Shown: in pieces, positions 985-20,000 of the stretch
Layout: each line of letters begins with the position of its first letter
Numbering within the stretch: the first letter of the stretch is position 1
Assembly: GCA_010405405.1 (NCBI GenBank)
Contig: MU004231.1
Location: 400,934 to 420,933, forward strand
Reading direction: 5' to 3'
Length of the DNA stretch: 20,000 nucleotides
Source of the DNA: Microthyrium microscopicum
Lineage: Eukaryota
Translations under genes and position numbers: made by a program
Notes under the pieces: generated by a model
What the model saw: only the letters and a program-made list of their open reading frames with translations
The model's database searches: none
Told to the model about the DNA's origin: nothing

Positions 985-3740
985 AAGATCATGTAATTCC
1001 ATCTTGTTATTTCCCAAGGTTTCTGGAGTTTATGGAGCCTAGATTGTGGTCCCCGGAGTTTTTGGCCCACAGGAATTGGCCTTGGAGCTTGGCGTTTGAA
1101 AGGATCGCAAACTTTGTTTACTTGTCGCTTTTTGTTCATTTGGCCATATCAAAATACGCGCCCATCACTAGATGAAAGGATACAGCCAAAGAGCTGACCA
1201 CGCCACGTTTGAACCCATAGTTAAGGAACACCAAGGTCCGAAGAGCTTCCATTGTAGAAACGGATCGCAGCTGCACCATACGCCAGGAGTTCGCGTCGTA
1301 AATTCCAGGAATTGCTTGTTTTGCATCGTCTACCATACTAGGCCTGGGATTACCACTGGAGGTCATTAACTTACTTTGATCATGGAACCCAATCTGGATT
1401 GTTTCTGCTGTTGCTACAAATAAGCCTTAGACGACTCGTAATTCTAATCCTTGTTCATTCCGGCGCCCGGTTGCTGGAGGATTAAAGCCAGAGCTAAGCT
1501 TCTTACCGGATCATTCAGGATTTGGAATGCCATGTGTTTCTAGATGCATATGCTGAATGGCTTCACTTCCAAAGGACCTCTGGAAGAGACACAGCTCTCT
1601 GTTGGATACTCGGATTCAGGTTGTAGCAGGTAGCCAAAAGTGCGCGGCGAGGGTTTAGCGAGAACGTTACGATTGACGTTGGAAATGTCCTTTTCTATTT
1701 CATGTTAATACGACCATATGGATGGATTCTTCCTGGTATGTTTTTGATCAGCATTATCTTATTTGAACCACTGCATCCACATCGGAGTTGGAAATGACAT
1801 GTCTCGCTTTTTCCTGGTTTGCTGCTTTCTTCTTGCGCTCTTGGTTTTGATATTGATCGCCATTGAACTCGTCCCATTTTTCAGGATTCGGCATTGCAAA
1901 TCATCCTGGAGATTGATATATGTGAATGATGTACGGATGCATCTGAGATTGGCCATCTTCTAACGCTCCTTGCTATGAATGCCCAAGCGAAGAGCAGGGA
2001 GTTACTAGATGTAGTACTTTGCCTCAAATTTGAGTTTCCAGAATCTATCGCGGCATGCTTCCCCAGGCTACCAGTTTTCTGCCAACTTACGATCCATGCT
2101 TGCCTCATAACCGCGGGTTCGCGACCTCGTCCACAAAGCGTTTCTGTTCGTGAAATGCTTGATTTTAGGAAAAGATTTCCTTGTACAGATATCCCTCCTT
2201 CGCAATCATGCTCTACGAACCAAATGTCAAATATGAGATGCAATCATCTGAGACGCTTCGTTGTTGCTGGCCAAGAATCGTCTAGTCATTGCTCATTCTT
2301 ACCTCGCGTCCTTGTATAGCCCATATATCGACAATGACTGTCTCGGAGACTATCATCACTGTGCTTAACTCTCGGGACAGCTGTTTATCTTTCTGTATCA
2401 AAATATGTGGTAATTTACCGTTTCTCAATGACGAGGCTGATATCAGATTCTATCCAGGAAGAGAAAGACCGCAACATCTTCGCGCTGGCCTGAAAAGAAG
2501 TTCGGCTTATGGTATTGTTGGGTAGAGTACTCGGACAATGGTTTCGTCATGTTCCAAGCTGAACAGGATAGTCTTGGATGTTTGATAGATTATTTGGCTC
2601 GAAGTCTATATCAAACATGATGGGGCATGAATCGATACGCGCATGCCAAGTAGAGTTCTGCATGAATGTGATATTAGCATGGAATCGCATTTTACCAAAA
2701 TCTTTCGCATCATTTCGAGAACTCAGGCCTTGCTGCTGGAGAATTATCAAAACCTCTTCGATCCTGGTTGGAATATCGGAAATCCGTACCCGTACGTTGT
2801 ACTACCTGCGTTCAACGATACGTTATACATCGCCACATCTGCTCGAAGGTCGGTTCAAATAATCAAATATAGGTCGATCTCAATGATTTGGAATTGACAA
2901 GAATATTCCAAATTGAAGTTTTCCACAAACTTCACTGTATTCCATAGAATTCCCCATCCTCCTCCTATTCTCGCATCTAGACCTGAGTGGCAAAAAATCG
3001 ATGTAAGCACGTGAAGTTCATTGGTGGTCCAATACATGTCGCAGAACCTCAACCACATTACAGCCATGACGGCATCCGTCGATGCAATTGACGATCTCGG
3101 TTAGGGACCTGACCGCCCAGACGTTTACGATCTGCTCTGTTATGTTCTCCGCCTTGAGCCGCATAACGCAACGCAATGCACGATGGGAAAATACCCTTAA
3201 AAAACAGCTTATCGTGCGTTAGTAATGTCGGTGAAGATTAGAAGAGGGTTCGGAAAGTGGGCCATGAAAGTTCAAGGGTCCTGCGACCCACTGCTATGGT
3301 CTGGGGAGGCCTCTTTTGCGGTTTGTGGTTAGATTTTGCGACTGAACGGCGAAATGCGAGAACTGGTGTAGAGTAGTCCGCGTGCAATTGGATAAGAGTG
3401 CTGATCAACACTGACAAAGTTTCTCGCGGATTGTTTTAGTTGCCTTGCGTTCCCGATAGGTTTCCACCGGCCGGACCGAATGGGCGGAGTTACAAGATAA
3501 TTTTGAAAGTTTTGATCGACATACGATGCTGCTAAAAGTACTCGCTAGAATGATATCTGTTAGTGCTATCGACGGTGGTCATGCTCTGCAGGATTGTCCA
3601 CTCTGGATCGTTACGGAGGAATACTCCGCCATGCTGACTCTCCAATCGCTATGATATCGTTTGACGGGTGGCGTATCTGGCAGTTTGAAGCAAGTCGGTG
3701 TGGCAAAAAATGATGTTCAAGGGTGCATGCGGATAATGAG

Positions 3741-3772
3741 AACCAATGTTATCTCAGCCAATCAGATCACGC
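3741..3772. promoter_or_regulatory. Two CCAAT-box-like motifs immediately outside the RIP boundary
   Basis: AACCAATG at ~3741 and AGCCAATCAG at ~3756; motif match only. Confidence 0.3.
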
Positions 3773-4371
3773 CAAGTCTCCACTAGCTGCGACGTAGTCA
3801 CGTCTAAGGATAACTTAGAAAATTTTATAGCGACTTACTTTGCAATTTTGCTATTTTTATAAATAACTTAATACTATTATAATTATAGCCCTATAGCTTA
3901 AATTTAGTACTATTTAATCCTTATAGTTAGAAATTAGCTTTCTAATAAATCTATTTTTATTTAGGATTAACGTAAAACTATAATATTTAACTATTCCTCC
4001 TAATATACCTAAAAACGTCTAACGTATTTATATTTTAGTAAGCGTACCTTTAACTATTAATTACTAAATAATCGCTATAATATATATAATTTTATATATA
4101 TAAATATACTTAAAACTATTATCTATTTTAATCTAGTACGTTATTTTTAGGTTATTATTATTAATAGTAGTATATACTCTATTTTTATTCTACTAACTAC
4201 TATATTATTACCTACCTAGTTAATTATTTCCTTATTATAGGATATATATATAAACTATTAAAGGATTATACTTAATAGATATTAAGAGTTTTCTAGTACT
4301 ATATATTAATTAAAGTCTATAAGACGTTAGTAAAATCTTTAATAAGCCTAATAAAGTTGCTACTTCTTATA

Positions 4372-4440
4372 AGATCTAGATAATATTAGAAGATCTATTA
4401 AGATATTAGAAGATCTATTAAGATATTAGAAGATCTATAG
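4372..4440 (+). repeat. 20-bp tandem repeat (ATATTAGAAGATCTATTAAG) about 3 copies plus a degenerate copy
   Basis: Directly visible: ..aagatctagataatattagaagatctattaagatattagaagatctattaagatattagaagatctatag.. Confidence 0.85.
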
Positions 4441-4529
4441 TAATATTTAATTATTCCATCTATGCCTTACTACTAATCTATTATACTTATTATATATTCT
4501 AAGTTAAAACTTTTTTAACTAAGTTAGTA

Positions 4530-7500
4530 ATGCTATTTATAAAGACGAAAAGAATACTAAAAGCGCTTCTAAGCTTTAAAAAGAAGCCTATAAATAGGCA
4601 AACTAATAATAGGGAACGTTTTTCTAATTATTACAAAAGCTAAGAGATATAATACCCTCTATTACTATACGACCTAGACGAGATAGAGCTAAAAGAACTT
4701 AATAAACGTACTAGGAGGATATTTAGAATAAAACTAGAAACTATCTATAAGATAATTAATATCTTAACTTAAAGTAAAAGTTATTTAAAGAAACAGCCTA
4801 GCGTATTAAAAAGTACTTTAAAATAATTCTATCTAGACATTAAGTTAAAAGAAGCCTAAATTTAAGCCTTTTATATATTAATTTATAATAGTAGGGATAT
4901 ACTTTTAATAGCTAAAACTAGGTTTAGCAAAAGCTTAATCCTATATACCTATAATACTTTAACTAGTAAGATTATACTCTAAATTATTCCTCTTAATAGA
5001 CTTAGGAAAGACTAGTATAATAGTATTAAGAACATAGAAGAATATACTTCTTATCTACTAATAAGGGATTCTAAAGAGAAAATTTAATATCTTACTTATA
5101 GGATAAGGAGAAGAGACTTTAGTTATATTCTTTTATTACTAAAGCTAGTATTATCTCTAGACTTCTAAAAACTTCTAAAGGATGTAGAGTTTTAGTAAAG
5201 AATTAAATATATTACTATTAATAAGTATTATCTTGTCTATTAGTAGTATAACTTTTAAACAAAGTTTACTATAATTAGCAAGCTTAGAGTAATATTACTA
5301 TAGAATATCGTCTAGTTTAGATATACTAGTATATTAAGTTAATTAGCGTAGGAAATAGTTCTTTAGCTTAGTAGCTTTTAATAGTTAGGTTAATATTAGC
5401 AATAAACTACTCTATTAAGAATAAGTATTAATTGTCTAAATCTTTCTATTATTATACGCTTTATTAAGAAAGGTAAGCTTACTTCTTTTAATAATCTTTA
5501 TAATATTTTATAGTACGCGTTTTAATAAGTATATAAAACTACTACCTTAGTAGATAAGAATTACTATAAAGTAACTACTAGCTAATAAAAAGTTTAACGC
5601 TAGGACGTATAGTTTAATAATAAGTATAGTACTAGTATAGATATAGTAAGTCCTAGATCTAATCTTTATTCTATAAAGAATAAGGATAATACTAATAGTA
5701 AACGTTTAGGTAAAGAAGATATTAATATTAATAGTTCTAGCTAACATCCTAAACTTAAGTATAAGTATATACGTAAACGCTCTAACTATAAGATTAAAGT
5801 TAGTAGTCTATCTAAGATACTAAAGATAATTATCTTTATTAATAGTATCTTTAGTATCTAAACTATACTTATATACCTTTACTATTTACTAATTATACTT
5901 ACTTCTTATCTTCCTAATAGTTACCCTAAGAAGTACTTACGTAATTTAAAAGCTAGAGTATTTTATGTTAATAAGATTATTAAGGAGTATACGTCTTAGT
6001 TATCTAAGTATAATCAAAATTACTATTATACTACTTTTTATAAACCTAACTCTAAGATTTAAATTATAGTAGTAATAACTTATCTTAAGCTTAGCTACTA
6101 TATTCCTAGTATTATGCTTATTATTATTTAGAAAATACTAATTAGTTATAATATACTAAATCTCTAGTAGTATACTAGTTATAGCGCGTAAAGTAAAGAT
6201 AACTATAGTATAGTTAAAATTTAGCTCCTATATTACTTATATAATAAATATATAAAAGAATAACCTATTTAGGATATACCTAAGCTTAGTATAGCTATAA
6301 CGCGCTAGTAGAAGACTACTACGCGTTATATACTTTTATTATATTACGCTATATAATAATAATATTAGTCTTAGTAAGCTCTTTTCTAGTAAGCTTTATT
6401 ATATCCTCTATTATAAGTATAGATACTAGGCAATATATTAGATATTAGCGAAAATAGCCTTACTAATATAGAATAAGAATCTACTAAACTAGAATCTTTT
6501 GTAGCTAGTTCATCTTAGGCTAGACTTTTAACCTAGAATATAGTAAGGAAGCAAAAGAAGTTAAAGAAGATAAAGTTCTTTTCTAAACCTAAGACTAAGT
6601 AATAAGTAAAAATACCCTAAGAGTTCTATAATTTAGTAAACGCTAATTATATCTACGTTATAATTTAGAAGTTTCTTAGTAAAGATTAAATACTATTTTT
6701 ACTAGCTTAGGATCTACTACTTTACTATAATAGATATAACCTAGCCCTATTACTTCTAAAGATTACTCCTTATAAAGACAAATTAGCTAAACTAAAACCT
6801 TTAGCTCTTAATAGTTATAGCTAGTTTACTTTAGAAAAGATTATAGCTTAAGTATAAGACTAGATATAAAGATTATATCTACTCTCTACTATATCTAAGT
6901 ATAGTATATTATCTTTTATAGTACTAAGCTATTATACTTAATAGTAGTTAGTTTATATCTTCTTTAGTATTACTAAGCTTAGTAACTTACTATCCTTAAT
7001 AAAATAGGATTAGTTAAAGAGTTAAGTAACTCTTCTTTATAACTAGGATGAATATAATAATTATAGTATAGACCTACTTAAAAAGCTTAAGGTATTAGCT
7101 ATTCTAGTACTTATAAGGTTTACTAAACTTAAGTAATAGAGGCAAGAACGTAAGAAATAAAAAGAGGTAATAAAAAGCTAAAGCGTATCTTAATCTACTA
7201 ATTAATAAGTAATTAAGATTAACTTAGCTAAGGATACTAATAAGGCTATTAGATAGTAGCAAGAAGCTAATTATACTAATATTAAGGCTTATTTTAAAGC
7301 TATAGCATATAAATAAGATAAAAAATAGCATTACTAAAGTAGCTTACTATCTTAGATAATAAGTATATCTAGTACTACGTTAATATCTAGTTTAGCTTTA
7401 AGACTATTAGCCTCTTCTCTAGCTCTTAAGCCTTCTTATTACTATACGTTATAGGCTATAGTTAATACTATAATTCTTAAGAATTCTAAGCTAAGTAGTC

Positions 7501-7685
7501 CTATATCTCTACTTACTAGCAAAACTATACGTTATAGTACTCTTATAGAGTTACCTATTAGCTTAACCTAGGCTAGAGCTAGTAAGTAAGTAAAAGATAC
7601 TTTAAGTATACTACCTAGTTATAAAAGAGCTACTTAGTTACTAAGTATCGCTAGTATTAAATAAGTAGAGAAGAGAGCTTAATAG
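4530..7685 (+). pseudogene. RIP-mutated RecQ-like superfamily 2 (DExH) DNA helicase, about 1,050 codons, intronless
   Basis: All motifs lie in frame with ATG 4530. Motif I GCT AAA ACT AGG TTT AGC AAA AGC (4911-4934) restores to AKTGFGKS. Motif Ia reads QIIPLNRLGEDQ. Motif II AAT AAG TAT TAT (5220-5231) restores to DECH in the context IAIDECHLV.QW..FR..F..IGELR. Motif III reads WFGCTGTL, followed by SIDRPNL. Motif IV IPKTIIFID is at 5817-5843, motif V IRIMVATT.L.LG..IP at ~6057-6107 and motif VI LWQRAGRGAR at 6162-6191. A Zn module C.R...CCNRCNP is at 6648-6743. Stops are TAA/TAG as expected from mutated CAA/CAG/TGG/CGA. The 3' end is approximate. Confidence 0.9.
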
Positions 7686-7749
7686 GGAACTATTAGGTTA
7701 AGCTATATCTAGAAAACGCATATTAGGCATTTATTAATTCTTATAGAAA

Positions 7750-10700
7750 AGGAAAAGTATAATACTATCTTTCCTAACTAATTATTACTTTAACTTAGTA
7801 TGTCTTTTAATACTAGTACGTAGAGTTCTATGCTCCTAGTAGGCTATCTACTCTATATCTAATATTAGTAAAATGCTACCCTCTAATTAGTTAATATTAA
7901 CTAAGATCTTCTAAGATTAAATTAGATTATTCTACAAATTTAAATATATTATAACAATACTAAACTTCTACTATCTAAGTATATTATTTCTAGCAAAGTT
8001 AGATAGGATAGTATATAGCTATAGGCTTACTAATAATAAGACTATATTCTATTATTATACTATTAATAGAAGCTATATATACTAATAACTTTTACTATAT
8101 TTTTAGCAAAAGTATAATTATAGAATAAGTTATTATATGCTTCTCTTATTAAAGCTTTTAGTTAATATACTATCTACTAGTATAGCTATCCCTTAGTATA
8201 ACGCTATTACTTTATAGTATTTAAAGCGCATAAGAAGATATATTTACTTCTCTCTTTAAAGGTCTTATTATAATATTAGTAGCCTTCTATCTATTATAGT
8301 ATATTACTCTTAGTATTATATCTTACTACGTCTAAGTAAAGATTAAATTTCTATATAAAGTAATAGCTTAAGATAGCAAGCTAAGTATAGTTACTACTTA
8401 CTTAACTTAATCCTTATAGCACGTAAAAGGAACTAACTACTATATAGTAATATTGTTAATATTAGTGCCTATAGAAAAGAAGTTAGTAAGCTAAAAGATA
8501 AGAAGTAAATATAGCCTACTATAGTGCCTATTTAAACTAGTTAAGACTAGAGCCTAATAAGTATTTAATTATATCTATCGCTCTAGATCCTTTATATTTC
8601 TTCTTTATACCTTTACTCTATATTTAAGCTTTATAAAGCTTTGCTTTATAGAGATATTTAGTAAGTTTAACGTTAATATTAACGTTATATACTATATTAT
8701 TTATACGCCTTTCTATGCGTAGTTTTAAGTTACTTTACTTACTTAGTAACCTCTAGTTAGCGTGCGTATAAGGCTATTTAGGTTTATTTCTAAGTTTAAC
8801 TCTTAGACTAATTCTTACACTTCTTTAGGCCTAATTATTATCTTTATAGTACTAATATTAAATCTCTAGTTACTACTTCTAAGTTTATAGCGCTAGATTT
8901 AAAATCGTATTTACTACTTCTTAGCAGCTTAGTAGCCTAGAAAATTAGGTCCTTATTTATACGTATTTAGTCTAATATTCTTTACTTATTTATTAAGCCT
9001 TATATTAAGAGAGTTCCTTAAGTTAATCTATATTTACCTAATAAGCTTTAAGTAAACTATTATTTTAAACACTACCTATTCTAAGCTTATTATAGCTTAT
9101 CTTTATAGGCTTATAAGTAGCTAGTAAGTAGTTAATATTTAATAGATAATACTACGTAAATCTTGCTAACTTGCTTATAAATAAGTAATAATATAGTTAC
9201 TAATTTTATAGGTTTAATCCTAGTCTTATAGCGCAAGATTTTAGTTACTAAATCTAGATAACTTTAGTTTATATAGTAGAGACTATCTTCTAAAATTTAT
9301 ATTACGTGCTATTAGACTAGGTTAGACTTCTTCTATTCTAAGGCTTAGAAGTAGACTATATAGTAGCTATTTATTCTACGCCTTATAGTAGTAGTATTAT
9401 TATAGCTTTTAGTAAGTTAATCTCATTCTATAATATCTAATTCTAAGATTAATAGTAAGCACTTTAGATTTTTATAATACCTCTAATACTTATAGAATAA
9501 ACCTATAGACCTCTTATATCTTTAAGAGATCTATTCTATTATAAGGCTATCGTAATTAAGCTACCTTATAATATCTACTATCTTGCGTTATTAACGCTCC
9601 TATAGTAAATAGGCTTTTACAAAGATATTCTAGTATATAATTAACTAATATTTTTATAGAACTTTATATAATTTATTAGAACTTTATACTTTAGGAAAGA
9701 ATAATAAGATATTATCCTTAGGAATAGTTTTAATAGGAAATAATAGCTTAAACTAACTAGGCTTTATTTTTATAAGAGTATAGATTAAATAGGAGTATTA
9801 CTATAATAAAACCTTCCCTTGCCCTATATTTTAAAGCTCTTTAATAATATATATATTAGCTTTATATACCCTTTATAAACGTTAGCTTTCTATTAGACTT
9901 TTAAAGATGCCTTAATATTACTAGCCTTTAGTATATTTAGTATACTATAATATGCTATATATTTATACTAACCTATTTAAATATAATTTTAAGGGTAAAA
10001 AAAAGATATATAGCCTAAAGGCCTACATAGTAATTATTATAGAATCTAGAATAGTCTATTAATAAGAGATATATTTATACTATAATAAGTACATAGACCT
10101 CCTAAGTACTTTTCCTAATGCTAATAAGTATATTCCTTTACTTTTAAATTATAAATAATAATATTAATAATATTATAGTAATAATAATTAAGAAGAATAG
10201 GTAGTAGTCTAGGGCTTACTATCCTTAAATCTACCTACTCTTCTCTTCTCTTCTCTACTATCGCTACTACTACTATAGTAGTCTTCTTGCGTAGTTACGC
10301 CTCTAGGTGTAATTTAATAACTATTATTATCTAAGCTTAAGCTCTTAAATAAGCGTAGATACCTTACTTTATCTACTTTCTTATATTCTTTTAAGCAAAA
10401 GTCCTTAGCGTTACCTACTAATTTTAATAGCGATTTATTTACTTTATAAGAGAAGGATTTACTTACCTTTAAAAAGGCTCCTCCTACTATAGAAAAGGAG
10501 GATTTATATATATAGAATAAGGATAAAGATAATACGCTAGTCTATAATAATAATTATAATAATAATAATAGTTACGATTTATTTATACCTTCTTAGTCTT
10601 CTTCTTCTCTCTACTCTTAAGAAAGCTCTACTACTCCTTTTACTAAGACGCCTTAGGGCTCTTTTCCTCCTTTTTCTTTTTCTCTTTAGTTAGCTAGTAT

Positions 10701-11000
10701 ACTATATTTTAGTAAAGTTTTTTCTTACGCTATAAACTTCTTTACTACGCATACTATTATACTATCTTCTTTTAACCTATTATCTCCTATTGCCTTAATT
10801 TCTTCTACTAGTATTTATAATAGCACTACCTATATAGACTTTAATAAGGAAGTTAAAGCTATAAAAGCTTTACTTATAGCTTATATAGTAGCTACTATTA
10901 TAAAGGCCTCCTCTTTAGGCTTAATTAGGTCTTTTAACTTAAAGGCTATAGCTATTACTAAGGCCTACGGTTTAGTTAAGAAAATCTCTTAGTATTTTTA
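7750..11000 (-). pseudogene. RIP-degenerate gene of unknown function, convergent with the helicase
   Basis: Long minus-strand frame with coding-like composition after de-RIP, including an acidic/charged tract near 10,600-10,720. Probable 51-nt intron GTAGGC...CTAAC...TATAG at 8469-8519 (minus). Cys/His-rich segment near 9,920-10,100. Boundaries are approximate. Confidence 0.45.
10545..10570 (+). repeat. Imperfect (AAT)n microsatellite-like tract
   Basis: ataataataattataataataataata; may be a RIP-converted trinucleotide coding repeat (e.g. poly-Ser TCA on the minus strand). Confidence 0.5.
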
Positions 11001-11999
11001 TAAGAGTAGTAATGTTTTAAATTACTCTCTCGTACTAGATTATTTCTAGTTAGTAACTATTAACTAGTAAGAGGCTATATTACTTAACTAGAAGCATAAG
11101 GTGACTTATATTAGTTATATAGAAGAGATAGATACTAGTAAGACTTTTACTAGTAATAATGCTTATAAGCGTTGCTAGCTTAAGAGTTATATATACTAAG
11201 TATATATTTTAGAGGTAAGAAATATTCTTAAAAAACCTAGGTTCTAGTATTTATAATACTATGTAGCAAAGCCGCTAAAGGATAGTTATAGTATAGTTAG
11301 ACTTATAAATATACTAACTAGGAAGAAGAGAGCGTTAGGAAGATTACTAAAGGAATATAGAGAGTTTATAGTAATTTTACCTATTAGTAGAGGTTTAGCT
11401 AGTATGTTAACTTAAATAGTAATAGGTATAGTATAGTAAAAGATAGTATTTTAATATACTTTATACGTAATAATAATAACTACCTAAGTATATTTTATTC
11501 TTTACGATTAATAGTTTAATCTAGCTTTATAGGTTTATAAGACTCTACTAAATAACTATAAATATCTAGTATAGCTTAATATCGTAAGATACGTCTTAAT
11601 ACGCTTTATTTTCGTAAAATAAGGTTTAACTTAGCTCTACAAGCTTAGTCTAGCTTCTTCTAAATAGCTATAGGTTTTAAGGCAGCCCTAATTATAAGAC
11701 TCTATATCCTATATAATTATAATAAATAAAACTATTATAATTATATAAACTTAGTTCTTATTCTTATTATAATCGTTTAACTATAACTATTAGTATTTAA
11801 TACTATATATAGATTAATTTAGGAGGTAAAGTAGCTATACTTCATTATAGTTAGAAAAGTTATTATATACTTAAAGTTAAGGAATATAATACGATTAAAG
11901 TACTAATATAAAGATTTAATAAAATTAATATAAATTTAATAAGATAAAGTTAGGAAAAGAGGCTATAAATACTAATTAATTAGATATACGCTTTTCTAT

Positions 12000-13700
12000 T
12001 AGTTAATATCTTTTAATATATCCTAAGAAAATTAACTTAGTATCCTTAGCTTTAATTATATAGCTCCTACTCTTAATAGTTTAGCTTTAGAAGAGCTACT
12101 ATTATATTTACTATACATCCTCTATAATACTAATACTACTATTCTTATTTGCTAGACTTTAGCTAAGTCTTTCTATTATAGAGATAGCACTTCTAATACT
12201 AATTTAGTCTATTTATTACTAGCTACTTATTACTATTAACTAAGAGATTACTAGATAGGCTCTACGTACTTACTATATATTAATATTAAATTATAGAATT
12301 AGATAAGTAAGTTCCTTAATACTTATTAAGTTATTACTTATATTAGATACTTATATTTATTATCTTACCTTCCTTAAAACCCTTACTCTCGTTATACCTT
12401 ACTTTATATTAGTAGAAGGTAACTTCTTCTTATAGAGATTACTATCTATTAGAACTATAATTTCCTTACCTTTTTCTATATATTTAGTTGCTATAATAGC
12501 TAATATTAATACTCTAGCCATAATTACTAACTATCGTTACTCTTAGCTATTCTAGTCTACGTCCTTCTATTAATACTACGAGTTCCTAGCTTCTATATAC
12601 TCTTTTAATATTACTAATGCCTATACTTACTACTATTACTACAAAAAGATAACTATTTTTATAGATATTATTGCTATTTATAGTATATTAATTATAAGGT
12701 TTCTTTAGAATATTACGCTAGTAAAGGCTATTATGTTATATAATAATAGTTATATAGTTATTTACTATTTTAGCTTAGGTTATATTATAATCTATAGCTA
12801 CGCTAATTGCTCTTACTTATTTCTTACTAAGTAGGTAGCTATTTAATTAAGTTATTATCTATAAAACTCTTCTACTTATCTATACCTCTATTACTTCTTT
12901 ATACTACTCTTTAACTCTCTATTAGAGTTCCTTACTCCTTTTAAGAGTAAGGACTTCTTTATCTTTATTTACTTTAATTACTTATACTACCTACTATATA
13001 TTATAATAGTATCTTATATTTAGCCTTATATTAAAAGACTATAAGTTCTACTATGCTATATCTATTTAAGAACTAACCTTATTTACCTAGTGCTATTAAC
13101 GTAGACTCTTGTCTACTAACCTTTAAAGTAAGGATCTCTTATTTTTTATAATTTACTATTACTTAGCGCTTCTTTCTACTACTCGCGCTAGGAGAGGCAA
13201 TTCTATTTTAGTCTTTAGCTATCTATTAGCTTAGTAATAAGAAAGCTATAAGTTCTATCCTATAATTATATTCTAATAACTTATACTTCTATTTAGCTCT
13301 ATAGATATATACTTGCGTGTATTTATACTTTTCTAGCTACTTAAACTACCTAATAAATTAGTCTTTAGTCTTTATAATTTTAGAAGAGAAGCTATTAATA
13401 TTATTAGTTTATAGTTATTATCTAATTACGCTACCTAGGTAATAACGTAGGACTTACTAAGAACCTCTTAACCTTTAAATCTTAATATAACTTTAAACTA
13501 TAATAATAACTTTAAGTACTATACTCCTAATAACTAACCTATAATTTAAATTACGTCTATTATTAGTACTATACCTAGCCTCTACTTCTAGGTTTACTTC
13601 TACGTACTTCTTATCGTTTAGAGTATTTAGTAATTCTATAAGTAGAACTTCTTCCCCTACGTAGTATAGTCTAAGTCTTAGACTAAAGCTAATTTTAATT
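12000..13700 (-). pseudogene. RIP-degenerate ORF remnant, unknown function
   Basis: Minus frame around 13,150-13,680 reads as an acidic protein after de-RIP (..YVGEEVPLMELPDALNDEKYVEVNLEVEAG.. and ..ASPSASGRKKR..). Stops are TAA/TAG. No family recognised and the limits are uncertain. Confidence 0.35.
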
Positions 13701-16700
13701 AGCGTAGTTTTATTCTTATAGCACTTATATTATATTATTATACTATCTTTATATTAGGCTAAGAGAGAAAGTATTAAGAGATACTTATACGTATATAATA
13801 TTAAGCTAACGTTAATACGCGACGTCTTTTTAGTTAGATTAACTTACCCTTTTAGCTCTCTACTATAATAGCTATTTATATTACGCTTAGATTAAAGGAT
13901 AATAGCTTACTCCCTACTTAGTAATAAGTAATGATATAAAATCTAGGTAGATAGTTAGTTCGCTAGGGACTAAATAATAGTTAGTATGCTTAAATTAATT
14001 TCTACTACCCTTTAACTTATTATATCTTCTAAGTCTTAGTCTAAATTATAAACATAAGTATATATTCTTCTAATTATAAATTATTTTACTAATCTTTAGT
14101 TAAGACCTAAGCTTATAGTAACTCTAGGTAGTTCCTCTCTATCTAAATAATTTTCTCGTAGGAAGTAATAACCTATTTCGTATATATATAATTAGAAAGT
14201 CTAGTATCCTATACCTAATAATAGACTTATTCTCTTAAATCTTTTAATAGTTTAGTGCTAAGATTGCTAGTATCTTTATTAAAGCTATAGTCTTATATAG
14301 TTATAAGAAATACTATATAGCTAATTAAAAATATACCTAATGCCTATCCTATTACTTAATAGTAGTTCCTTATTCTTAGTCCTAAATTGACTAGCTAGTA
14401 ATAATAAGGTGCGTTAACTTCCCTAGATATTAAAATAGTTAATATACGTACTATATATAGAATAGCGTATACTATAGTTTTAAAGACGTTATTCCTTATC
14501 TACTTGTCTTAAGAAATAAAGAATAGATTTATAGTACTACGCTACCTAGATTAGTTCTAATAATTAATACTAGCCTCTTATTGCTAATATTTTACGCTCT
14601 TTTCCTTAATATAGCTAATCTTCTAGCTATACTTAACCTACGAGGAAGTATATAGTTATAATTATTAGACGTAATTATAGTTAGATAATATCTACTAGCT
14701 CTAGCTACCATTAATATTTAGTAGCTCTAGATTTAGCTTTAGTTTAGTTACTAAGAGTAATATAAGTAGGAGGTAATAACTAACAAGATTCTATATAATA
14801 GTACTTTAAAGGCTTTACTTACTTATTAATTATAGCTAAGGAAGATAATACTAGCTTATAAACTTAAATCTTTCTAATATTATTCTTTATAATTATAACA
14901 TCGTTAAATATATTAAATCTCTATATTATTGTCTAATATAATTATATAGTTTTAGACTTTAACGAAGCGCTATATCTTATATAATAATATAAAGCAAATA
15001 GTAATAAGATTATATATAGTTTATACGTAAGAATATACTATAGGATGTCTTTATCTAAAGAAAGCTAAGATTTCTATAATCTATAGCTACTAAACTATAA
15101 GAGATATTATTAACTTAATAGAGATAAATAATGTATTAACTAAAGTAAAGAATAGGCCTTATAAATTATACTCTTTAATTCTACTATCTAGTTATTATAA
15201 ATAATTACTAAAAGTAATTTTAACTAATATAGCTCTTTTACTAAGAAGTGCTACTTAAAAAGAGATTCTATATAATTACTACTAATATTAGTTAGATAAG
15301 ATACCCTCTATAGTAGTAATTCTAAATAGTAAGTAATACTAAGTATAGATTCTATATTATTATCCTTAATATTTAAAGGTTAATATAGTATGCAAACTAT
15401 AGCTTCTAATAAGAGGTATTGCTACTTTTATATTTCGCGTTATTACTTCTAATATTTAGTAACTAATAAAGAATTTAACGATTAGGCTTTTAATAAATAT
15501 ATTACTAGTAGCGTATTTTATAAAATTACTACTAGTATTAAGACATTAATAAGATATTTAGTAAAGGAACTTTATATAGAAGTACTACTAGATATATATT
15601 TTATATAATTATTACTAACTTCTAGAAATTAATAGAATATTTAGTAAGCGGTCTAAAAGAGGCAATAAGCTAGCTAGTAATTAAACGCAGTTAGCATTAA
15701 TATAAGAGATAATAGTTAACTTAATAATTAATCTTATATATAGCTAGTAGCTAGCTAGTAGTTAAGGATAGTACCTATTATAGATTTATTATTTTGCTAA
15801 TAGAGATATATAAATTAATACTATAATAGGCTTCTTATATATAACGTAGTAATACTAATTATCTAGATAATAAAGCTCTTATTTTAGAGTATAAGGTATT
15901 CCTAAATTAGATATATAGTAGGTTAGAAGGATATATAGTAGGCTAAAGAGAGGAGATAGTTCATTTCTATTTAATTAATTTATAAAAGGAGTTAGCAAAG
16001 TAATCTAGTCCTTTTATAGTAAGGATATTCTACGTTATAATTATACTAATAGTAAATTAGATAAGGAGTTATTTGTAATTAAAGGTATTTCTATAAGATA
16101 GTAATTCTATCTAGTAGGCTTATCTATTATAGTATAATAGCTAATAGAGATATAGTATATAAAACAAGTATAGATATTTTATATTATATAAATGCTAGTA
16201 TAAGAATTAAAGAGTAGTAGTTATTAGAATTTAAAAGGTTATAATAAGAGATCTATACGCTAATATTAATCTTACTAAATCTAGTTAGATAAACGAAGTT
16301 ATATAATAATCTTTTAAGATCTTAGATAATATTATTACTTCTAAGCTAATTATTTACCTTAGTTCTAATTATATAGTTTATATCTTATCTAGTTTCTAAC
16401 CTATTAATTTTTAATACTATATTAACTTCTAATCCTTACTAGTCTTTGCCTCTATATCTTCTATTCTCTATCTTATAAACTACCTCTCTTATTTCTTACG
16501 CTAATATTTAAATTCTATACCCTTACTAATACTTCTACTATTCTCTTTATACCCTTAAAACATCTATCTAATCTAAGTACTACTACCCTCTATACTATCT
16601 TTTCCTTAGCTAATAGGAACTATTAACTAGCCCGCAATAATTATTATAAGTATATCTAGCAAGCTAATAACTATAATAGTATATCGTTATAAAAATATAG

Positions 16701-16732
16701 ACTCTATATAGCTTTAGGAAGAATTATAGAGC

Positions 16733-17081
16733 GTCTCCTATCCTCTAAAATAAGTATATTATACTCCTTATTGCTTATCTTACTAATAACGTAATACTCT
16801 TTACATTATAGAAATATCTATTAGATATCCCACCTTCTAAAATAAGTATATTATACTCCTTATTATCTATCCTATTAATAAAGCAATACTCTTTACGTTA
16901 TAAAAACATTTATTATATATCCTACCCTCTAAAAGAAGTATATTATGCTACTTATCGCCCGTTCTACTAATAAAGTAATATTCTTTATACCTATAAAATA
17001 TTTACTATATCTCCTATCCTCTATAATAAGCGTATTATTCTTCTTATCGCCTATTCTAACAATAAAATAGTATTCTTTACG
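16733..17081. repeat. 92-bp tandem repeat, about 4 diverged copies
   Basis: The anchor (T/G)AAG(T/C)(A/G)TATT recurs at 16751, 16843, 16935 and 17027, exactly 92 bp apart. Each is preceded by TCC(T/C)A(T/C)C(C/T)TCTA and followed by a ..TCTTTA(C/T) segment. Confidence 0.85.
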
Positions 17082-17479
17082 CTAATAGTTATAGTACTTA
17101 TAAAACTAAAACTACGTAATCTAGAAAGGCTTAAACGTTATTAGTACTAGCTACCTAGAATGCTATTAGATATTAACTATATAGTTAGGCGTCTTTATTT
17201 CTTTAAGATATACCTATTATAATATAGTAGTTAGTAATTTACTAATAGAGTAAGTAAAATAGTAATAATTATAAGATGCGTCTATATATAGTAAGGAAAG
17301 ACTAGACTAACTAAGCGTTTTAAAGCTCTAAAGCCTTAAAGGCTAAAGCTTTAGTAATTAAGCGAAGTAGTAACCTCTTACGATAGAGTAATTTTAAGCT
17401 TAATAGTAAGAGCCTACGTTTATAGTCTATTTAATCTCTTAATCTATTAACTTCTCTACTTCTTCTTCTTCTTTATACT

Positions 17480-20000
17480 CTTATATCTAAAGAATACTTT
17501 AAATAACTATAAGATACAATTTCTTCTACTAAAACTTATAATAATAGCTCTAAAGTATATATCTATAAGCTTTAATATTAAGTATACTATAACTACTTTA
17601 AGTATACTAAAAATACCTAAAAGCTCTACTAAAGACCTAATTACCCTAAACTTAAATAAATCCTTATTACTAGAATCTACCTAACAAGCTACTCTAATTA
17701 AGTAGTCTATAAATCTAAACTAAGTACGTTTAGTAAGCTATTAAACTACTCTAATCTAATTACTATAGATATCTCTACCTTCTACTAATTCCTAATTTTA
17801 TAATAAAAAATATCCTCGTTAAGAAATATTAGTATAATTACTATAAACTCTTTAAAAGCCTAACTAGGCCTAGCTAGCTATAGTTACTTCTACTAGCAAA
17901 ATAGCAAATTAACTCGTTACGTTATCTATATAAAGTAATAGAAACTAGACTTTTACTTCTATTAAATAATTAGTTAAAAAGGACGAGAGCTATTATAATT
18001 ATAATTATTTATTAATACTAATTTATAGTAAAGAGGATACTACTATAATAGAAAGAGGTTTTAAATATAGATTTATTTCTCCTCTAAAAGGAGAAGAAGT
18101 ATAGCTAACCCTAGATCGTAAAGAATTACTAATAACTATAGTAAGTTGCTGCTATAATAATACAATACTTCTATATAACGCTTATAAAGGAAATTTATAA
18201 ATTTAGTAAAAGAGGTACTATATAGCTAGTAGCAAAGTAGAAATAGTAAAATAATAAAAAGAAGCACGCTAAAAACGCTAAGTAAGTAACTTAGAACCTA
18301 TTACAAAGAAGGCTACTTATAGTTAAGCACGCGTATATTAAAGCACCTAAGATAATATAATTAATATAGGCTCTATAACTTTATCGCGAAATAATATAAA
18401 GACTATAGTATTACTTAAAAGTTTAATAACTTCTCTAACTTAAGTTATAGTTAAGAAGCTATTACCATCCTCTAAATTATCTACAAGTAAGAAGTTAATA
18501 CTAAAAGTAGACCTTTAGGTCCTAATTCTATAGTTCTTAGAAAAGCAATATATATTTAGTAATATAAAAGTATCTATCTTTAATAACCGCGTTAAAACTA
18601 CTAATATCTAAGTTATATAACTACTCTTCTACTTACTCTAAAAATAGATCTTTAATAATATTAATCTAATAATGCTTTAAGTACTTCTTAAATACTAACT
18701 AGTACGAGGTCTATAATAGTATAAATATTCTACTCCTTAGCTTATAAATATTCTTAAGATACTACCTTTATTATATACTATAATAACATATTGCCTTACT
18801 ACAAATTAGATTAAATATTCTTATTAGCGTTACTTTAAAATTTAAAGTCTTAGTCTATTCTAAACAAAGAATAGTAAAAAACTAATATTAGTATATACTA
18901 TCTATATAATTATAAAAGTTAAGGATAAAAGCATTCTATTTAAGGGTGCCTATATAAATTATATTATAAAAGGATATTATAAGACTTACTCCTTTTATAA
19001 GGATAATAAGTAATTAACGCCTAAGCTACGTCCTAATGTCGCAAAGACTAAAAAGGCTAAGGAGGACTTTAGTAAATTTATATCTTAGTAAATTGCTTAC
19101 CTTATTACTAGTAAGGAAAAATAGAAGTTATAGAAGACTAAATAATACGAGATAGTAATTAAAGGAGTAGAAACTTAAGATATAGCTATTTAAAAGGGTT
19201 TAGTTTAACTAACGACTATAATAATAATTTCCTACAAGATATATATTATTTGCCTAAAGATAGATAAATAATAATTCTTATTTAATCTTTTAAGACTAGA
19301 CTTAGAGAATTTTTATCGTTTTTAATACTACGTTATTACTTGCTAGTAGGCTTATATACCTATAAGCTATTACTAAATTCTATAACTCTACTTATACTCT
19401 TAAAGTATAAGTAATAATATACTTCTTAACTATAAATAGGATAGGTAATCTATAACTAACTATACTATACTTATAAATTTAGATTAGGTAATCTCTATTT
19501 TTAGCTTATCTTATCTTAATCTATAGAGCCTAATTAGTATAGTAGTATATAAGCTATATTAGTAGATTATATCCTAGTTAAATATTCCTTATTTTAGCTA
19601 ACTACATCTAGTAGCGATAGAGCTAAGCTATAGATTATATCTTAAATAACGTAATAGATATAAGCTATCTAATAATATAGTAAAGTCTTTTACTAGCTTA
19701 CTATTAGAATGTCTTAAACTACTACTAAGTAGTAATACTTTTAGAAGTTAACGTTATAAAGTTAAAAAGAGATTTCTAAAATCTCTTTCCTTTAGAATAG
19801 GATAATAGTAGGTTATATATCTAAATACTAGCTAGTCTATATTAGTCTATAAGTTAAACTATTTTATAGATCTACTCTAATTATAATTACTTAGAGCTCT
19901 ATACTAGAAACTAGTAGTACTATTACTCTTATTAGTACATTAATAGCTTACTTTAGCTTAATAGGTAACCTAACATTTAAAGATATACTCTAGAGCTTAT
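17480..20000 (+). pseudogene. RIP-degenerate ORF remnant(s), unknown function, running off the window
   Basis: Plus-strand frame near 18,700-20,000 has long coding-like runs (PKLRPNVAKTKKAKEDF..; after de-RIP ..YKMCIICPK......FHRFQHHVVTCWW..). A candidate start region follows a pyrimidine-rich tract at ~17,450-17,480. Frame continuity not proven. Confidence 0.35.

What the first reader, a model, noticed from the sequence alone, without database searches (positions are those of the whole stretch)
3800..20000. Giant (>16 kb) multi-gene RIP relic led by a RecQ-like helicase: candidate AcademH-like or undescribed giant fungal mobile element
Seen: one continuous RIP-saturated block with a sharp left edge, packed with at least four long degenerate ORFs on both strands. 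The first is a RecQ-type SF2 helicase starting ~700 bp inside the edge. Established: RIP marks duplicated DNA; AcademH transposons encode a RecQ-like helicase plus a DDE transposase; Starships begin with a DUF3435 tyrosine recombinase. Inference: the block was a repeated, gene-rich unit with a helicase at its end and non-TE-like passenger genes. I saw no reverse transcriptase, integrase, Tc1/pogo or DUF3435 motifs, so it does not fit common fungal TE types in this window. The mobilising enzyme may lie beyond 20,000 or be one of the unidentified ORFs.
Basis: partly seen in the sequence, partly recalled or inferred. Interest (0 to 1): 0.8.

Follow-up and report, generated by a model that had tools for sequence, protein, structure and literature searches.

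The report
RIP-killed RecQ-like helicase gene copy
A fungal genome-defence process (RIP) has mutated to death a 16-kb stretch of once-repeated DNA whose first gene is a copy of a RecQ-like helicase that still exists intact in Microthyrium microscopicum; this kind of relic is already known from related fungi, and nothing here shows a new giant mobile element.

Summary
The RIP block is real. GC falls from 0.42-0.50 to 0.18-0.27 at 3800-3850 and stays low to 20000. CpA+TpG density drops from 13.7% to 1% of positions.

The helicase is real. Window 4530-7781 (+) is a gapless, single-exon relic of the 1083-aa protein KAF2669323.1 of Microthyrium microscopicum. Of 1079 aligned codons, 1070 are identical or differ only by C>T or G>A changes. 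The intact protein is RecQ-like by Pfam, by sequence matches to solved structures, by conserved motifs including four cysteines, and by predicted fold.

The rest of the finding is not confirmed. Only one further coding-like stretch stands out (10.4-13.1 kb), and it has no identified homologue. I found no transposase, Starship captain, reverse transcriptase, LTRs, inverted repeats or telomere repeats. However, Pfam also misses the proven helicase relic, so these negatives are weak. The right end and any other genomic copies could not be reached.

The best reading is a RIP-inactivated, helicase-led repeat unit like those described at fungal chromosome ends (Parastagonospora X26, Zymoseptoria, Colletotrichum, Botrytis). 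AcademH-like or novel giant-element readings remain possible but have no support.

The parts
3800..3850 (.). Left edge of the RIP-saturated block, where unique sequence meets once-repeated sequence
   Evidence: 100-nt GC is 0.41 at 3751 and 0.24 at 3801. The change-point of CpA/TpG density is at about 3850 (13.7% before, 0.97% after). The last dense CpA/TpG site is at 3799, three stragglers lie at 3841-3849, and none follow up to 4300.
3801..20000 (.). RIP-saturated AT-rich block of at least 16.2 kb. It runs off the window, so the right end is not seen.
   Evidence: GC is 0.19-0.27 in every 500-nt bin from 4001. In all 16 1-kb bins, TpA/ApT is 1.48-1.97 and (CpA+TpG)/(ApC+GpT) is 0.07-0.20. 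No ORF of 100 aa or more with a start codon occurs inside it.
4367..4447 (+). Tandem repeat of 20 bp, about 4 copies, ending 83 bp upstream of the helicase start codon
   Evidence: Tandem Repeats Finder reports 4367-4447, period 20, 4.1 copies, 85% matches, with a perfect core at 4383-4438. The sequence was read.
4530..7781 (+). Dead, single-exon relic of a RecQ-like SF2 helicase gene: 1083 codons plus the original stop, with 98 internal stop codons
   Evidence: phmmer of the read-through translation finds P0001 (1083 aa) at E=0, 1112.9 bits, 53% identity, in one stretch. Shifted-pairing controls give 18-19%. A family HMM built from 104 proteins hits only 4437-6146, at 206 bits.
4854..5354 (+). 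Helicase lobe 1, corresponding to the DEAD/DExH domain (P0001 residues 109-275). Walker A and the DExH box are destroyed in the relic.
   Evidence: Pfam DEAD on P0001 109-275, E=1.9e-12. In the relic, G131R, G133S, D231N, E232K, C233Y and H234Y are changed, and Q110, W239 and R243 are now stop codons.
5988..6191 (+). Helicase lobe 2, corresponding to Helicase_C (P0001 residues 487-554). Motif VI is destroyed.
   Evidence: Pfam Helicase_C on P0001 487-554, E=1.3e-7. In the relic, Q547 and R554 are stops and R551 is Y.
6648..6737 (+). Four-cysteine cluster (P0001 C707, C732, C733, C736). All four are tyrosine in the relic.
   Evidence: C707, C732 and C733 are invariant and C736 is at least 90% conserved in the 62-sequence alignment A1. 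The relic codons are TAT/TAC. That this is the RecQ-type zinc-binding site is my reading; Pfam RecQ_Zn_bind was not detected on P0001.
10399..11448 (+). Unidentified coding-like relic. The strand is assigned from the open stretch, and a minus-strand reading is not excluded.
   Evidence: Purine/pyrimidine 3-periodicity chi-square reaches 23.9 on 2 df; purine fraction by phase is 0.56/0.38-0.39/0.32-0.33. The longest stop-free stretch of the block lies here, 100 codons at 10690-10992 (+); 2 of 200 simulations reach 100. No homologue was found.
12199..13098 (+). Second coding-like stretch in the same phase as 10399-11448. It may belong to the same relic. Unidentified.
   Evidence: Chi-square reaches 14.7, with purine fraction 0.53/0.38/0.35 by phase. 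The + phase-0 frame has 4-6 stops per 100 codons here, against 8-21 in the other frames. Pfam finds nothing.
16736..17103 (+). Tandem array of 92 bp, 4 copies, inside the block
   Evidence: Searches give 4 copies at 100/84/75/65% identity to copy 1. Copies 1 and 2 are 99% identical once purines and pyrimidines are collapsed but 84% identical as bases; they differ by 13 transitions and 2 transversions.

Best explanation
Shown: window 4530-7781 is a copy of a single-exon RecQ-like helicase gene. RIP has mutated it to saturation, leaving 98 premature stops and every catalytic motif hit. An intact, almost identical version (KAF2669323.1, 1083 aa) exists in Microthyrium microscopicum, so the window most likely comes from that species or a very close relative. 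The relic is the first gene inside a block of at least 16.2 kb that is uniformly RIP-saturated, which means the whole block was once present in more than one copy. Partly shown: the block holds at least one more coding-like relic (10.4-13.1 kb) and two tandem arrays, one of them just upstream of the helicase start. Inferred: the block is the remains of a helicase-led repeat unit of the kind found at fungal chromosome ends. The order here is unique sequence, sharp boundary, short tandem repeats, helicase gene reading away from the unique sequence, then AT-rich DNA with tandem repeats. Such units multiply by recombination, gene conversion or break-induced copying between chromosome ends, not by a transposase of their own. 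Once duplicated, the copies passed through sexual cycles and RIP turned CpA (and less often CpG) into TpA until they no longer resembled each other. A single intact copy is then safe from RIP because it has no recognisable partner. The helicase of the intact copy would act as a 3'-5' DNA helicase. A role at chromosome ends is a guess taken from the literature on telomere-linked helicases.
For: Identity of the relic: phmmer E=0, 1112.9 bits, one collinear stretch covering query 64-1143 and P0001 4-1083. Of 1079 gapless codons, 570 are identical, 500 are explained by C>T/G>A and 9 are not; 97 of 98 stops are explained; shifted controls give 18-19%. P0001 is KAF2669323.1 of M. microscopicum, named 'DNA 3'-5' helicase'.

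RIP signature measured inside the ORF: CpA mutated at 128 of 139 sites, CpG at 120 of 200, CpC at 33 of 261, CpT at 10 of 246.

RecQ-like nature of the intact protein: DEAD and Helicase_C are found in all 10 of 10 family members scanned. All 35 matching PDB sequences are RecQ-family or unnamed helicases; 32 are named WRN, Q5, RecQ, Q1 or BLM. The DExH box, W239/F242/R243, Q547/R551/R554 and the four cysteines are conserved across 62 sequences. The AlphaFold model has pLDDT 73 and pTM 0.68, and all listed Foldseek hits are BLM, RecQ, WRN, RECQL5 or RECQ1.

Architecture: edge at 3800-3850, 20-bp x4 array at 4367-4447, ATG at 4530, 92-bp x4 array at 16736-17103.

Precedents, from passages read. 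In M. oryzae, chromosome-unique sequence is followed by tandem repeats ending 181 bp before the TLH start, then the TLH gene, then 66% AT DNA with tandem repeats, then the telomere. C. higginsianum has 11.3-18.5 kb helicase-containing units that separate telomeres from unique sequence. P. nodorum has the sub-telomeric repeat X26, a RIP-degraded RecQ helicase, alongside 26 apparently functional copies. Z. tritici has a 3480-bp RecQ ORF with GC 34.7% in 13 subtelomeric copies. B. cinerea Vv3 has a 15.5-kb helicase-bearing element with captured genes at chromosome ends.

Many family members sit on short contigs of 3-14 kb, as repeats often do.
Against: No telomere repeat or RIP-mutated telomere repeat is in the window. 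There are 2 near-matches against 2.33 expected. In purine/pyrimidine space the longest telomere-like run is 16 nt, against a simulated mean of 17.3. So a subtelomeric position is not shown.

The helicase is not a canonical TLH. It has no C2H2 zinc-finger pattern, nor do any of the 198 family proteins held. Pfam shows only DEAD and Helicase_C. It is 1083 aa long, and no protein named TLH appears among its 59 relatives.

Atlas neighbours are multi-member helicase clusters, mostly Basidiomycota plus one cnidarian cluster. That patchy spread would also suit a transposon-borne helicase.

Only two copies of the gene are known to me, the relic and P0001. That the 12 kb downstream belonged to the same unit as the helicase is not shown, and no other copy of the block could be examined.
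Confidence: 0.4

Rival explanations
1. Mosaic AT-rich region. The block is an ordinary RIP-degraded repeat island assembled from several unrelated repeats, such as retrotransposon and DNA-transposon relics. The helicase relic is only one piece and happens to lie at the edge.
For: Only 3.25 kb of the 16.2 kb can be tied to the helicase. Coding-like signal elsewhere is patchy: two stretches, with nothing from 13.1 to 20 kb. GC skew and AT skew change sign several times along the block. AT-rich islands of nested RIP-degraded elements are the norm in Dothideomycetes (general knowledge; passages describe such repeat families).
Against: No LTR pair, inverted repeat or internal duplication of 60 nt or more exists even after collapsing transitions, apart from the 92-bp array. 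No Pfam family is found in any of the 24 read-through translations covering all six frames. This last point is weak, because the proven helicase relic is also missed.
Confidence: 0.3
2. Giant helicase-bearing mobile element: AcademH-like or a new type. A transposase or other mobilising enzyme would lie among the unidentified relics or beyond 20000. The helicase assists transposition, and other relics are cargo.
For: The helicase gene sits 730 bp inside a sharp boundary. An intact, probably single, 'master' copy survives. Family members lie on short contigs and in multi-member clusters with a patchy spread across fungi plus one cnidarian cluster. AcademH elements encode a helicase and occur at low copy number in Ascomycota (passage; TSD lengths). 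A second coding-like relic follows at 10.4-13.1 kb.
Against: No transposase-like protein was found in any frame; Pfam gives 0 of 24 translations, though the test is insensitive. No terminal inverted repeat partner is in the window. No relative of 1897 aa or more was found at E<=1e-10. All 59 relatives carry helicase or topoisomerase/nuclease domains only, and none carries a transposase domain. A Starship is excluded as far as it can be tested, because the first gene is a helicase and not a DUF3435 recombinase. A Helitron is excluded because the helicase is RecQ-type SF2 and not PIF1-type.
Confidence: 0.18
3. One-off segmental duplication of an ordinary genomic region that contained a cellular helicase gene and its neighbours, later hit by RIP.
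For: Only two copies of the gene are known to me, the relic and P0001. The relic differs from P0001 by only 9 of 1079 codons once RIP is discounted.
Against: RIP acts on both members of a duplicate pair, yet P0001 is intact with normal composition. Saturation (92% of CpA sites gone) implies many cycles with a recognisable partner. The family behaves as multi-copy in other fungi; for example, two copies occur in Achaetomium macrosporum on contigs of 13.8 and 14.8 kb.
Confidence: 0.1

Closest known systems
RIP-degraded sub-telomeric RecQ helicase repeats of Dothideomycetes (Parastagonospora nodorum repeat X26; Zymoseptoria tritici telomere-associated RecQ family)
   Same: The fungal class is the same. 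A RecQ-like helicase gene is present in several copies, some RIP-degraded with very low GC while other copies stay apparently functional. ORF size is comparable: 3252 bp here against 3480 bp in Z. tritici (passages).
   Different: Chromosome-end location is not shown here. Sequence relatedness to those families could not be tested, because their sequences are not held. Here the relic is at saturation (GC 0.25) and only one intact copy is known.
Telomere-linked helicase (TLH) ends of Magnaporthe oryzae and BcTLH of Botrytis cinerea
   Same: The order of features matches: unique sequence, sharp boundary, tandem repeats just upstream of the start codon, helicase gene reading away from the unique sequence, then AT-rich DNA with tandem repeats (one search compared). 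The helicase core is RecQ-like.
   Different: TLH proteins are described with two C2H2 zinc fingers and a TLH-specific domain. P0001 and all 198 family proteins held lack a C2H2 pattern. No telomere repeats are in the window. At least 12.2 kb follows the gene here, against up to about 5.5 kb in M. oryzae.
Long helicase-led subtelomeric units (Colletotrichum higginsianum DHX_G198 and derivatives, 11.3-18.5 kb; the 15.5-kb 'Helitron-like' element of B. cinerea Vv3)
   Same: These are units over 11 kb with a DEAD/Helicase_C helicase, some carrying other genes, lying between unique sequence and the chromosome end. The size range matches the block of at least 16.2 kb.
   Different: Those units are GC-normal and conserved (42% AT for DHX_G198), and they contain DUF3505 and TTAGGG motifs. 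Here everything is RIP-saturated and neither feature was detected. Pfam is insensitive on these relics, and the telomere motif was tested and is absent.
AcademH DNA transposons (Kojima 2020; paper not held, known to me only from citing passages and recall)
   Same: They encode an SF2 helicase with DEAD and Helicase_C domains and are reported at low copy number in Ascomycota.
   Different: The defining Academ transposase was not found. The 9-10 bp target-site duplications and the termini cannot be tested with only one end in the window. Whether the AcademH helicase is the same family as P0001 was not tested.

Membership tests
RecQ-family SF2 helicases | Two RecA-like lobes with helicase motifs 0, I (Walker A), II (DExH), III and VI | tested here: met
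   On the intact homologue P0001, Pfam finds DEAD at 109-275 and Helicase_C at 487-554. Q110, T130/G133/K134/S135, D231/E232/H234 and Q547/R551/R554 are invariant or at least 90% conserved in 62 sequences. The window copy has lost them.
RecQ-family SF2 helicases | Closest solved relatives by sequence and by fold are RecQ helicases | tested here: met
   Of 35 PDB sequence matches, 32 are named WRN, Q5, RecQ, Q1 or BLM and 3 are labelled only 'ATP-dependent DNA helicase'. All listed Foldseek hits are BLM, RecQ, WRN, RECQL5 or RECQ1, with E down to 3.7e-18 and target TM-scores of 0.41-0.77.
RecQ-family SF2 helicases | Zinc-binding subdomain with four cysteines; RQC and HRDC domains | tested here: inconclusive
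   Four conserved cysteines (C707, C732, C733, C736) follow the helicase lobes. Pfam RecQ_Zn_bind, RQC and HRDC were not reported on P0001 at E<=0.01. The region 680-880 is modelled with high confidence but was not compared on its own.
Telomere-linked helicase (TLH) genes / subtelomeric helicase repeats | Located within a few kb to tens of kb of a telomere | not testable with these tools
   The window is 20 kb of unknown position. It holds no telomere repeats, native or RIP-mutated. No fungal genome DNA could be searched.
Telomere-linked helicase (TLH) genes / subtelomeric helicase repeats | Two C2H2 zinc fingers and a TLH-specific domain beside the helicase core (as described in the passage) | tested here: not met
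   No C2H2 pattern in P0001 or in any of the 198 family proteins held. Pfam reports only DEAD and Helicase_C. The TLH-specific domain itself could not be tested.
Telomere-linked helicase (TLH) genes / subtelomeric helicase repeats | Multi-copy gene flanked by tandem repeats, with a sharp boundary to chromosome-unique sequence upstream of the gene | tested here: inconclusive
   The boundary and a 20-bp x4 array upstream, plus a 92-bp x4 array downstream, are present. Only two gene copies are documented.
AcademH DNA transposons | Academ-type DDE transposase encoded beside the helicase | tested here: inconclusive
   No Pfam family in any of 24 read-through translations of the block, but the same scans miss the proven helicase relic. 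No relative of 1897 aa or more at E<=1e-10 (weak).
AcademH DNA transposons | Defined termini with 9-10 bp target-site duplications; several copies with the same ends | not testable with these tools
   Only the left edge is in the window, and other copies cannot be fetched. The TSD length comes from the passage.
Starship elements | DUF3435 tyrosine recombinase ('captain') as the first gene at the 5' end | tested here: not met
   The first gene inside the only visible edge is the RecQ-like helicase. No DUF3435 hit in any frame. The other end of the block is unseen, so a captain there is not excluded.
Helitrons | Rep (HUH) nuclease fused to a PIF1-type SF1 helicase | tested here: not met
   The helicase is SF2 and RecQ-like. 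Pfam reports no Helitron_like_N or PIF1 on P0001.
LTR retrotransposons | Pair of long terminal repeats; reverse transcriptase and integrase | tested here: not met
   No direct repeat of 60 nt or more within 20 kb even with transitions collapsed, apart from the 92-bp array. No RVT or rve hit (insensitive). An element with one LTR outside the window is not excluded.

The most novel reading that the evidence does not exclude
The relic marks one end of an undescribed, low-copy, helicase-led giant mobile element of ascomycetes, over 16 kb with cargo genes. Its intact master copy (around KAF2669323.1) is still present in Microthyrium microscopicum. Its stand-alone RecQ-like helicase family, with its patchy spread in fungi and multi-member clusters, would be the element's hallmark gene. 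It could be a divergent AcademH relative or a new class mobilised by an enzyme not yet recognised.
Probability: 0.12. Interest if true: 0.65.

Novelty: new member of a known kind. Interest (0 to 1): 0.25.

Why it matters
As it stands this is a clean, well-documented example of something already described: a multi-copy RecQ-like helicase gene killed by RIP while one copy survives intact. Its value is practical. The relic and its intact counterpart differ almost only by RIP, so the pair gives a direct readout of RIP site preference in this species: CpA 92%, CpG 60%, CpC 13%, CpT 4% of inferable sites mutated. The case also shows that standard domain scans are blind to saturated relics, while a search against close intact paralogues recovers them. 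If the 12 kb downstream proves collinear with the intact locus, the case would bear on an open question. Are the helicase-led units of fungal chromosome ends selfish elements or host structures, and how do single copies escape RIP?

Tried and rejected
1. Pfam on read-through (X at stops) translations of all six frames of 3801-20000. All 24 translations gave 0 families at E<=0.1 or E<=1. This is not informative, because the proven helicase relic is also missed, whereas intact P0001 scores 47.7 and 32.3 bits.

2. phmmer against PDB with relic translations. 4650-5900 (+) gave 0 hits. 17673-19292 (+) gave 0 hits. 10150-11499 (-) gave one chance-level hit at E=0.84.

3. Word-indexed protein search with 10201-11550 (+) gave no hit among proteins of 247-788 aa. 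This is a weak negative: the helicase relic shares only 36 exact 5-residue words with P0001, 18 of them in its first 500 residues.

4. Search for longer, fused relatives of P0001 found none at E<=1e-10.

5. Second helicase copies in the window. tblastn with 198 family proteins gave 30 weak HSPs outside the relic (best E=0.003), several of them in the flank at 2237-2800. The family HMM did not confirm any, so I rejected them.

6. Telomere repeats, native or RIP-mutated, were not found.

7. Internal repeats, LTRs or TIRs with transitions collapsed were not found.

8. Tandem Repeats Finder on a two-letter collapsed copy of the window gave 607 mostly spurious rows. Only the 92-bp array stood out (score 633), so I discarded the method.

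9. Codon-usage and purine/pyrimidine-codon log-odds trained on the helicase relic gave only weak, ambiguous signals outside it.

11. Rfam and tRNA scans found nothing. Pfam on 9 flank ORFs found nothing.

12. Kojima 2020 (AcademH) is not held. Statements about AcademH rest on citing passages and recall.

Other copies, the right end, TSDs and empty sites therefore stayed unchecked.

Full report
1. THE OBSERVATION

The composition change is real and sharp. GC is 0.42-0.50 in 500-nt bins over 1-3500. It is 0.37 in the bin 3501-4000 that spans the edge, and 0.19-0.27 in every bin from 4001 to 20000.

The classical RIP indices flip at the same place. In all 16 1-kb bins from 4001, TpA/ApT is 1.48-1.97 and (CpA+TpG)/(ApC+GpT) is 0.07-0.20. 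In the four flank bins the values are 0.57-0.93 and 1.05-1.61.

CpA/TpG sites occupy 13.7% of positions before about 3850 and 0.97% after. The last dense site is at 3799, and none occur between 3850 and 4300.

No ORF of 100 aa or more with a start codon lies in the block. The block runs off the window, so its right end is unseen.

2. THE HELICASE

A purine/pyrimidine periodicity scan is blind to RIP, because RIP makes only transitions. It pointed to a + strand frame from about 4350 to 7600.

I sent that frame (4350-7949, 1200 residues) to the exhaustive phmmer search. It returned 188 proteins at E<=0.001. The first, P0001, scored E=0, 1112.9 bits and 53% identity. It aligned in one stretch, query 64-1143 to protein 4-1083.

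P0001 is KAF2669323.1 of Microthyrium microscopicum, which UniRef names 'DNA 3'-5' helicase'.

A codon-by-codon test shows what the window copy is. Over 1079 gapless codons (4542-7778):
- 570 encode the same residue as P0001.
- 500 can be turned into a codon for the P0001 residue by undoing only C>T or G>A changes.
- 9 cannot.
- 97 of the 98 in-frame stops are explained the same way.
- With the pairing shifted by 5-47 residues, only 18-19% of codons pass.

The ATG at 4530 and the original stop at 7779-7781 are both in place. The gene has no intron.

Where the ancestral base can be inferred from P0001, the fractions mutated by context are CpA 128 of 139, CpG 120 of 200, CpC 33 of 261 and CpT 10 of 246. 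That is the textbook RIP preference.

Every catalytic motif is hit: Walker A, the DExH box, motif VI and all four conserved cysteines. The window copy is therefore a dead relic. Before RIP it was at least 99% identical in protein to a gene that still exists intact. The window most likely comes from M. microscopicum or a very close relative; this is an inference.

3. WHAT THE INTACT PROTEIN IS

Pfam finds DEAD (residues 109-275) and Helicase_C (487-554) on P0001, and on all 10 of 10 family members scanned. It reports nothing else relevant.

All 35 PDB sequences matched are helicases. Of these, 32 are named WRN, Q5, RecQ, Q1 or BLM.

A 62-sequence alignment shows these residues as invariant or nearly so: Q110, T130/G133/K134/S135, D231/E232/H234, W239/F242/R243, Q547/R551/R554, and four cysteines at 707, 732, 733 and 736.

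An AlphaFold model built from that alignment has pLDDT 73 and pTM 0.68. It matches only RecQ-family cores (BLM, RecQ, WRN, RECQL5, RECQ1) among the listed Foldseek hits.

The family consists of stand-alone proteins of about 600-1250 aa in Ascomycota: Verruconis, Histoplasma, Ascosphaera, Botryotinia, Achaetomium and Penicillium, plus many unnamed records. They often sit on contigs of only 3-14 kb. P0001 is the only M. microscopicum member among the 59 hits.

No relative of 1897 aa or more was found at E<=1e-10, which is weak evidence against fused forms. The Atlas places P0001 nearest to multi-member helicase clusters, mostly of Basidiomycota, and to one cluster from Cnidaria. This is a lead only.

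4. THE REST OF THE BLOCK

There is only one helicase relic. A family HMM built from 104 proteins hits 4437-6146 at 206 bits and nothing else. It did not confirm the weak tblastn HSPs seen in the left flank.

With transitions collapsed, the window contains no direct or inverted repeat of 60 nt or more other than a 92-bp x4 tandem array at 16736-17103. So there are no LTR pairs, no inverted termini and no internal duplication. A 20-bp x4 array lies at 4367-4447 and ends 83 bp before the ATG.

A training-free chi-square test of 3-base periodicity in purine content flags, besides part of the helicase (up to 27.6), two stretches in one shared phase. These are 10399-11448 (up to 23.9) and 12199-13098 (up to 14.7). 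The first contains the longest stop-free stretch of the block, 100 codons at 10690-10992 on the + strand. Only 2 of 200 simulated blocks reach that length.

These stretches are probably one or two further gene relics. Their strand is not certain, and I could not identify them. Pfam, PDB and one word-indexed search of the + frame gave nothing.

All such negatives are weak. Pfam misses the proven relic, and the relic shares only 36 exact 5-residue words with P0001. Nothing else in 13.1-20 kb stands out.

The claim of 'at least four long degenerate ORFs on both strands' is therefore not confirmed. The evidence shows one proven ORF plus one or two candidates.

5. WHAT IT MOST LIKELY IS

RIP acts on duplicated DNA, so the whole block was once repeated. 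The order of features is:
- unique sequence,
- a sharp boundary,
- short tandem repeats,
- a helicase gene reading away from the unique sequence,
- AT-rich DNA with another tandem array.

This is the order described for telomere-linked helicase ends in M. oryzae. There a tandem-repeat block ends 181 bp before the start codon and marks the transition to chromosome-unique sequence (passages).

Several other precedents fit:
- C. higginsianum has helicase-containing units of 11.3-18.5 kb that separate telomeres from unique sequence.
- B. cinerea Vv3 has a 15.5-kb helicase-bearing element with captured genes at chromosome ends.
- In Dothideomycetes, P. nodorum has a RIP-degraded sub-telomeric RecQ repeat (X26) beside 26 apparently functional copies. 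The authors remark that it is unclear how some copies are preserved.
- Z. tritici has 13 copies of a 3480-bp RecQ ORF with GC 34.7%.

I therefore read the block as a RIP-inactivated, helicase-led repeat unit of this known kind, multiplied by exchange between chromosome ends. A single intact survivor is then immune to RIP because the relics are too diverged to pair with it.

6. WHAT ARGUES AGAINST THAT READING

No telomere repeats, native or RIP-mutated, are in the window.

P0001 is not a canonical TLH. TLH proteins are described with two C2H2 fingers and a TLH-specific domain, and none of the 198 family proteins held has a C2H2 pattern.

A subtelomeric position could not be tested. It is not shown that the 12 kb downstream belonged to the same unit as the helicase.

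My estimates for the four readings are:
- helicase-led chromosome-end-type unit: 0.40
- mosaic of unrelated RIP-degraded repeats: 0.30
- helicase-bearing giant transposon (AcademH-like or new): 0.18
- one-off segmental duplication: 0.10

A Starship does not fit as far as it can be tested, because no DUF3435 gene is at the visible end. A Helitron does not fit, because the helicase is not PIF1-type. An LTR element does not fit, because the window holds no LTR pair.

AcademH membership cannot be judged. The transposase test is insensitive, the termini and the 9-10 bp duplications need the other end and other copies, and the defining paper is not held.

7. NOVELTY

This is a new member of a known kind. 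The helicase identification is solid, and the relic-intact pair gives a neat measurement of RIP preference. The proposal of a giant novel mobile element has no positive support here.

The decisive work is a transition-blind comparison of the block with the rest of the assembly, especially with the locus of KAF2669323.1, together with mapping relative to the telomeres.

Noticed in passing
window 4530-7781 versus P0001 (KAF2669323.1): A saturated relic and an intact, almost identical gene coexist. Only 9 of 1079 codons differ once RIP is discounted, and 3 of those 9 look like transitions on the P0001 side. How one copy escaped RIP is unexplained. The same puzzle was noted for the RecQ genes of P. 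nodorum (passage).
   Followed up: partly
window 16736-17103: Tandem array of 92 bp, 4 copies. Copies 1 and 2 differ by 13 transitions and 2 transversions, so RIP acted after the array had formed. Later copies also differ by many transversions. Summed over all six pairs of copies, there are 93 transitions and 63 transversions.
   Followed up: partly
window 205-864 (+): The flank holds a 219-codon open frame rich in P, Q, G, Y and S. It is low-complexity and has no Pfam family. None of the 9 flank ORFs scanned has a Pfam hit.
   Followed up: partly
window 2237-2800 (-): Several helicase-family proteins gave weak tblastn HSPs here in the GC-normal flank (best E=0.054, P0009 residues 59-216). The family HMM found nothing there, so they are probably chance.
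   Followed up: yes
window 17451-19300 (+): This frame has fewer stops than its neighbours (2-8 per 100 codons in places) and a 77-codon open stretch at 17451-17684. Its periodicity is not significant (chi-square below 6). There were no PDB or Pfam hits. It was never searched against the large protein sets.
   Followed up: partly
P0001 residues 265-268: P0001 reads C-T-G-T where the family consensus has C-S-A-T, the motif III 'SAT'. This is a minor departure in the intact copy, and its significance is unknown.
   Followed up: no
P0001 family: Relatives often lie on very short contigs of 3-14 kb. The Atlas neighbours are multi-member clusters in Basidiomycota, plus one in Cnidaria. This pattern would suit a repeat-borne or transposon-borne helicase and deserves a proper phylogeny.
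   Followed up: no
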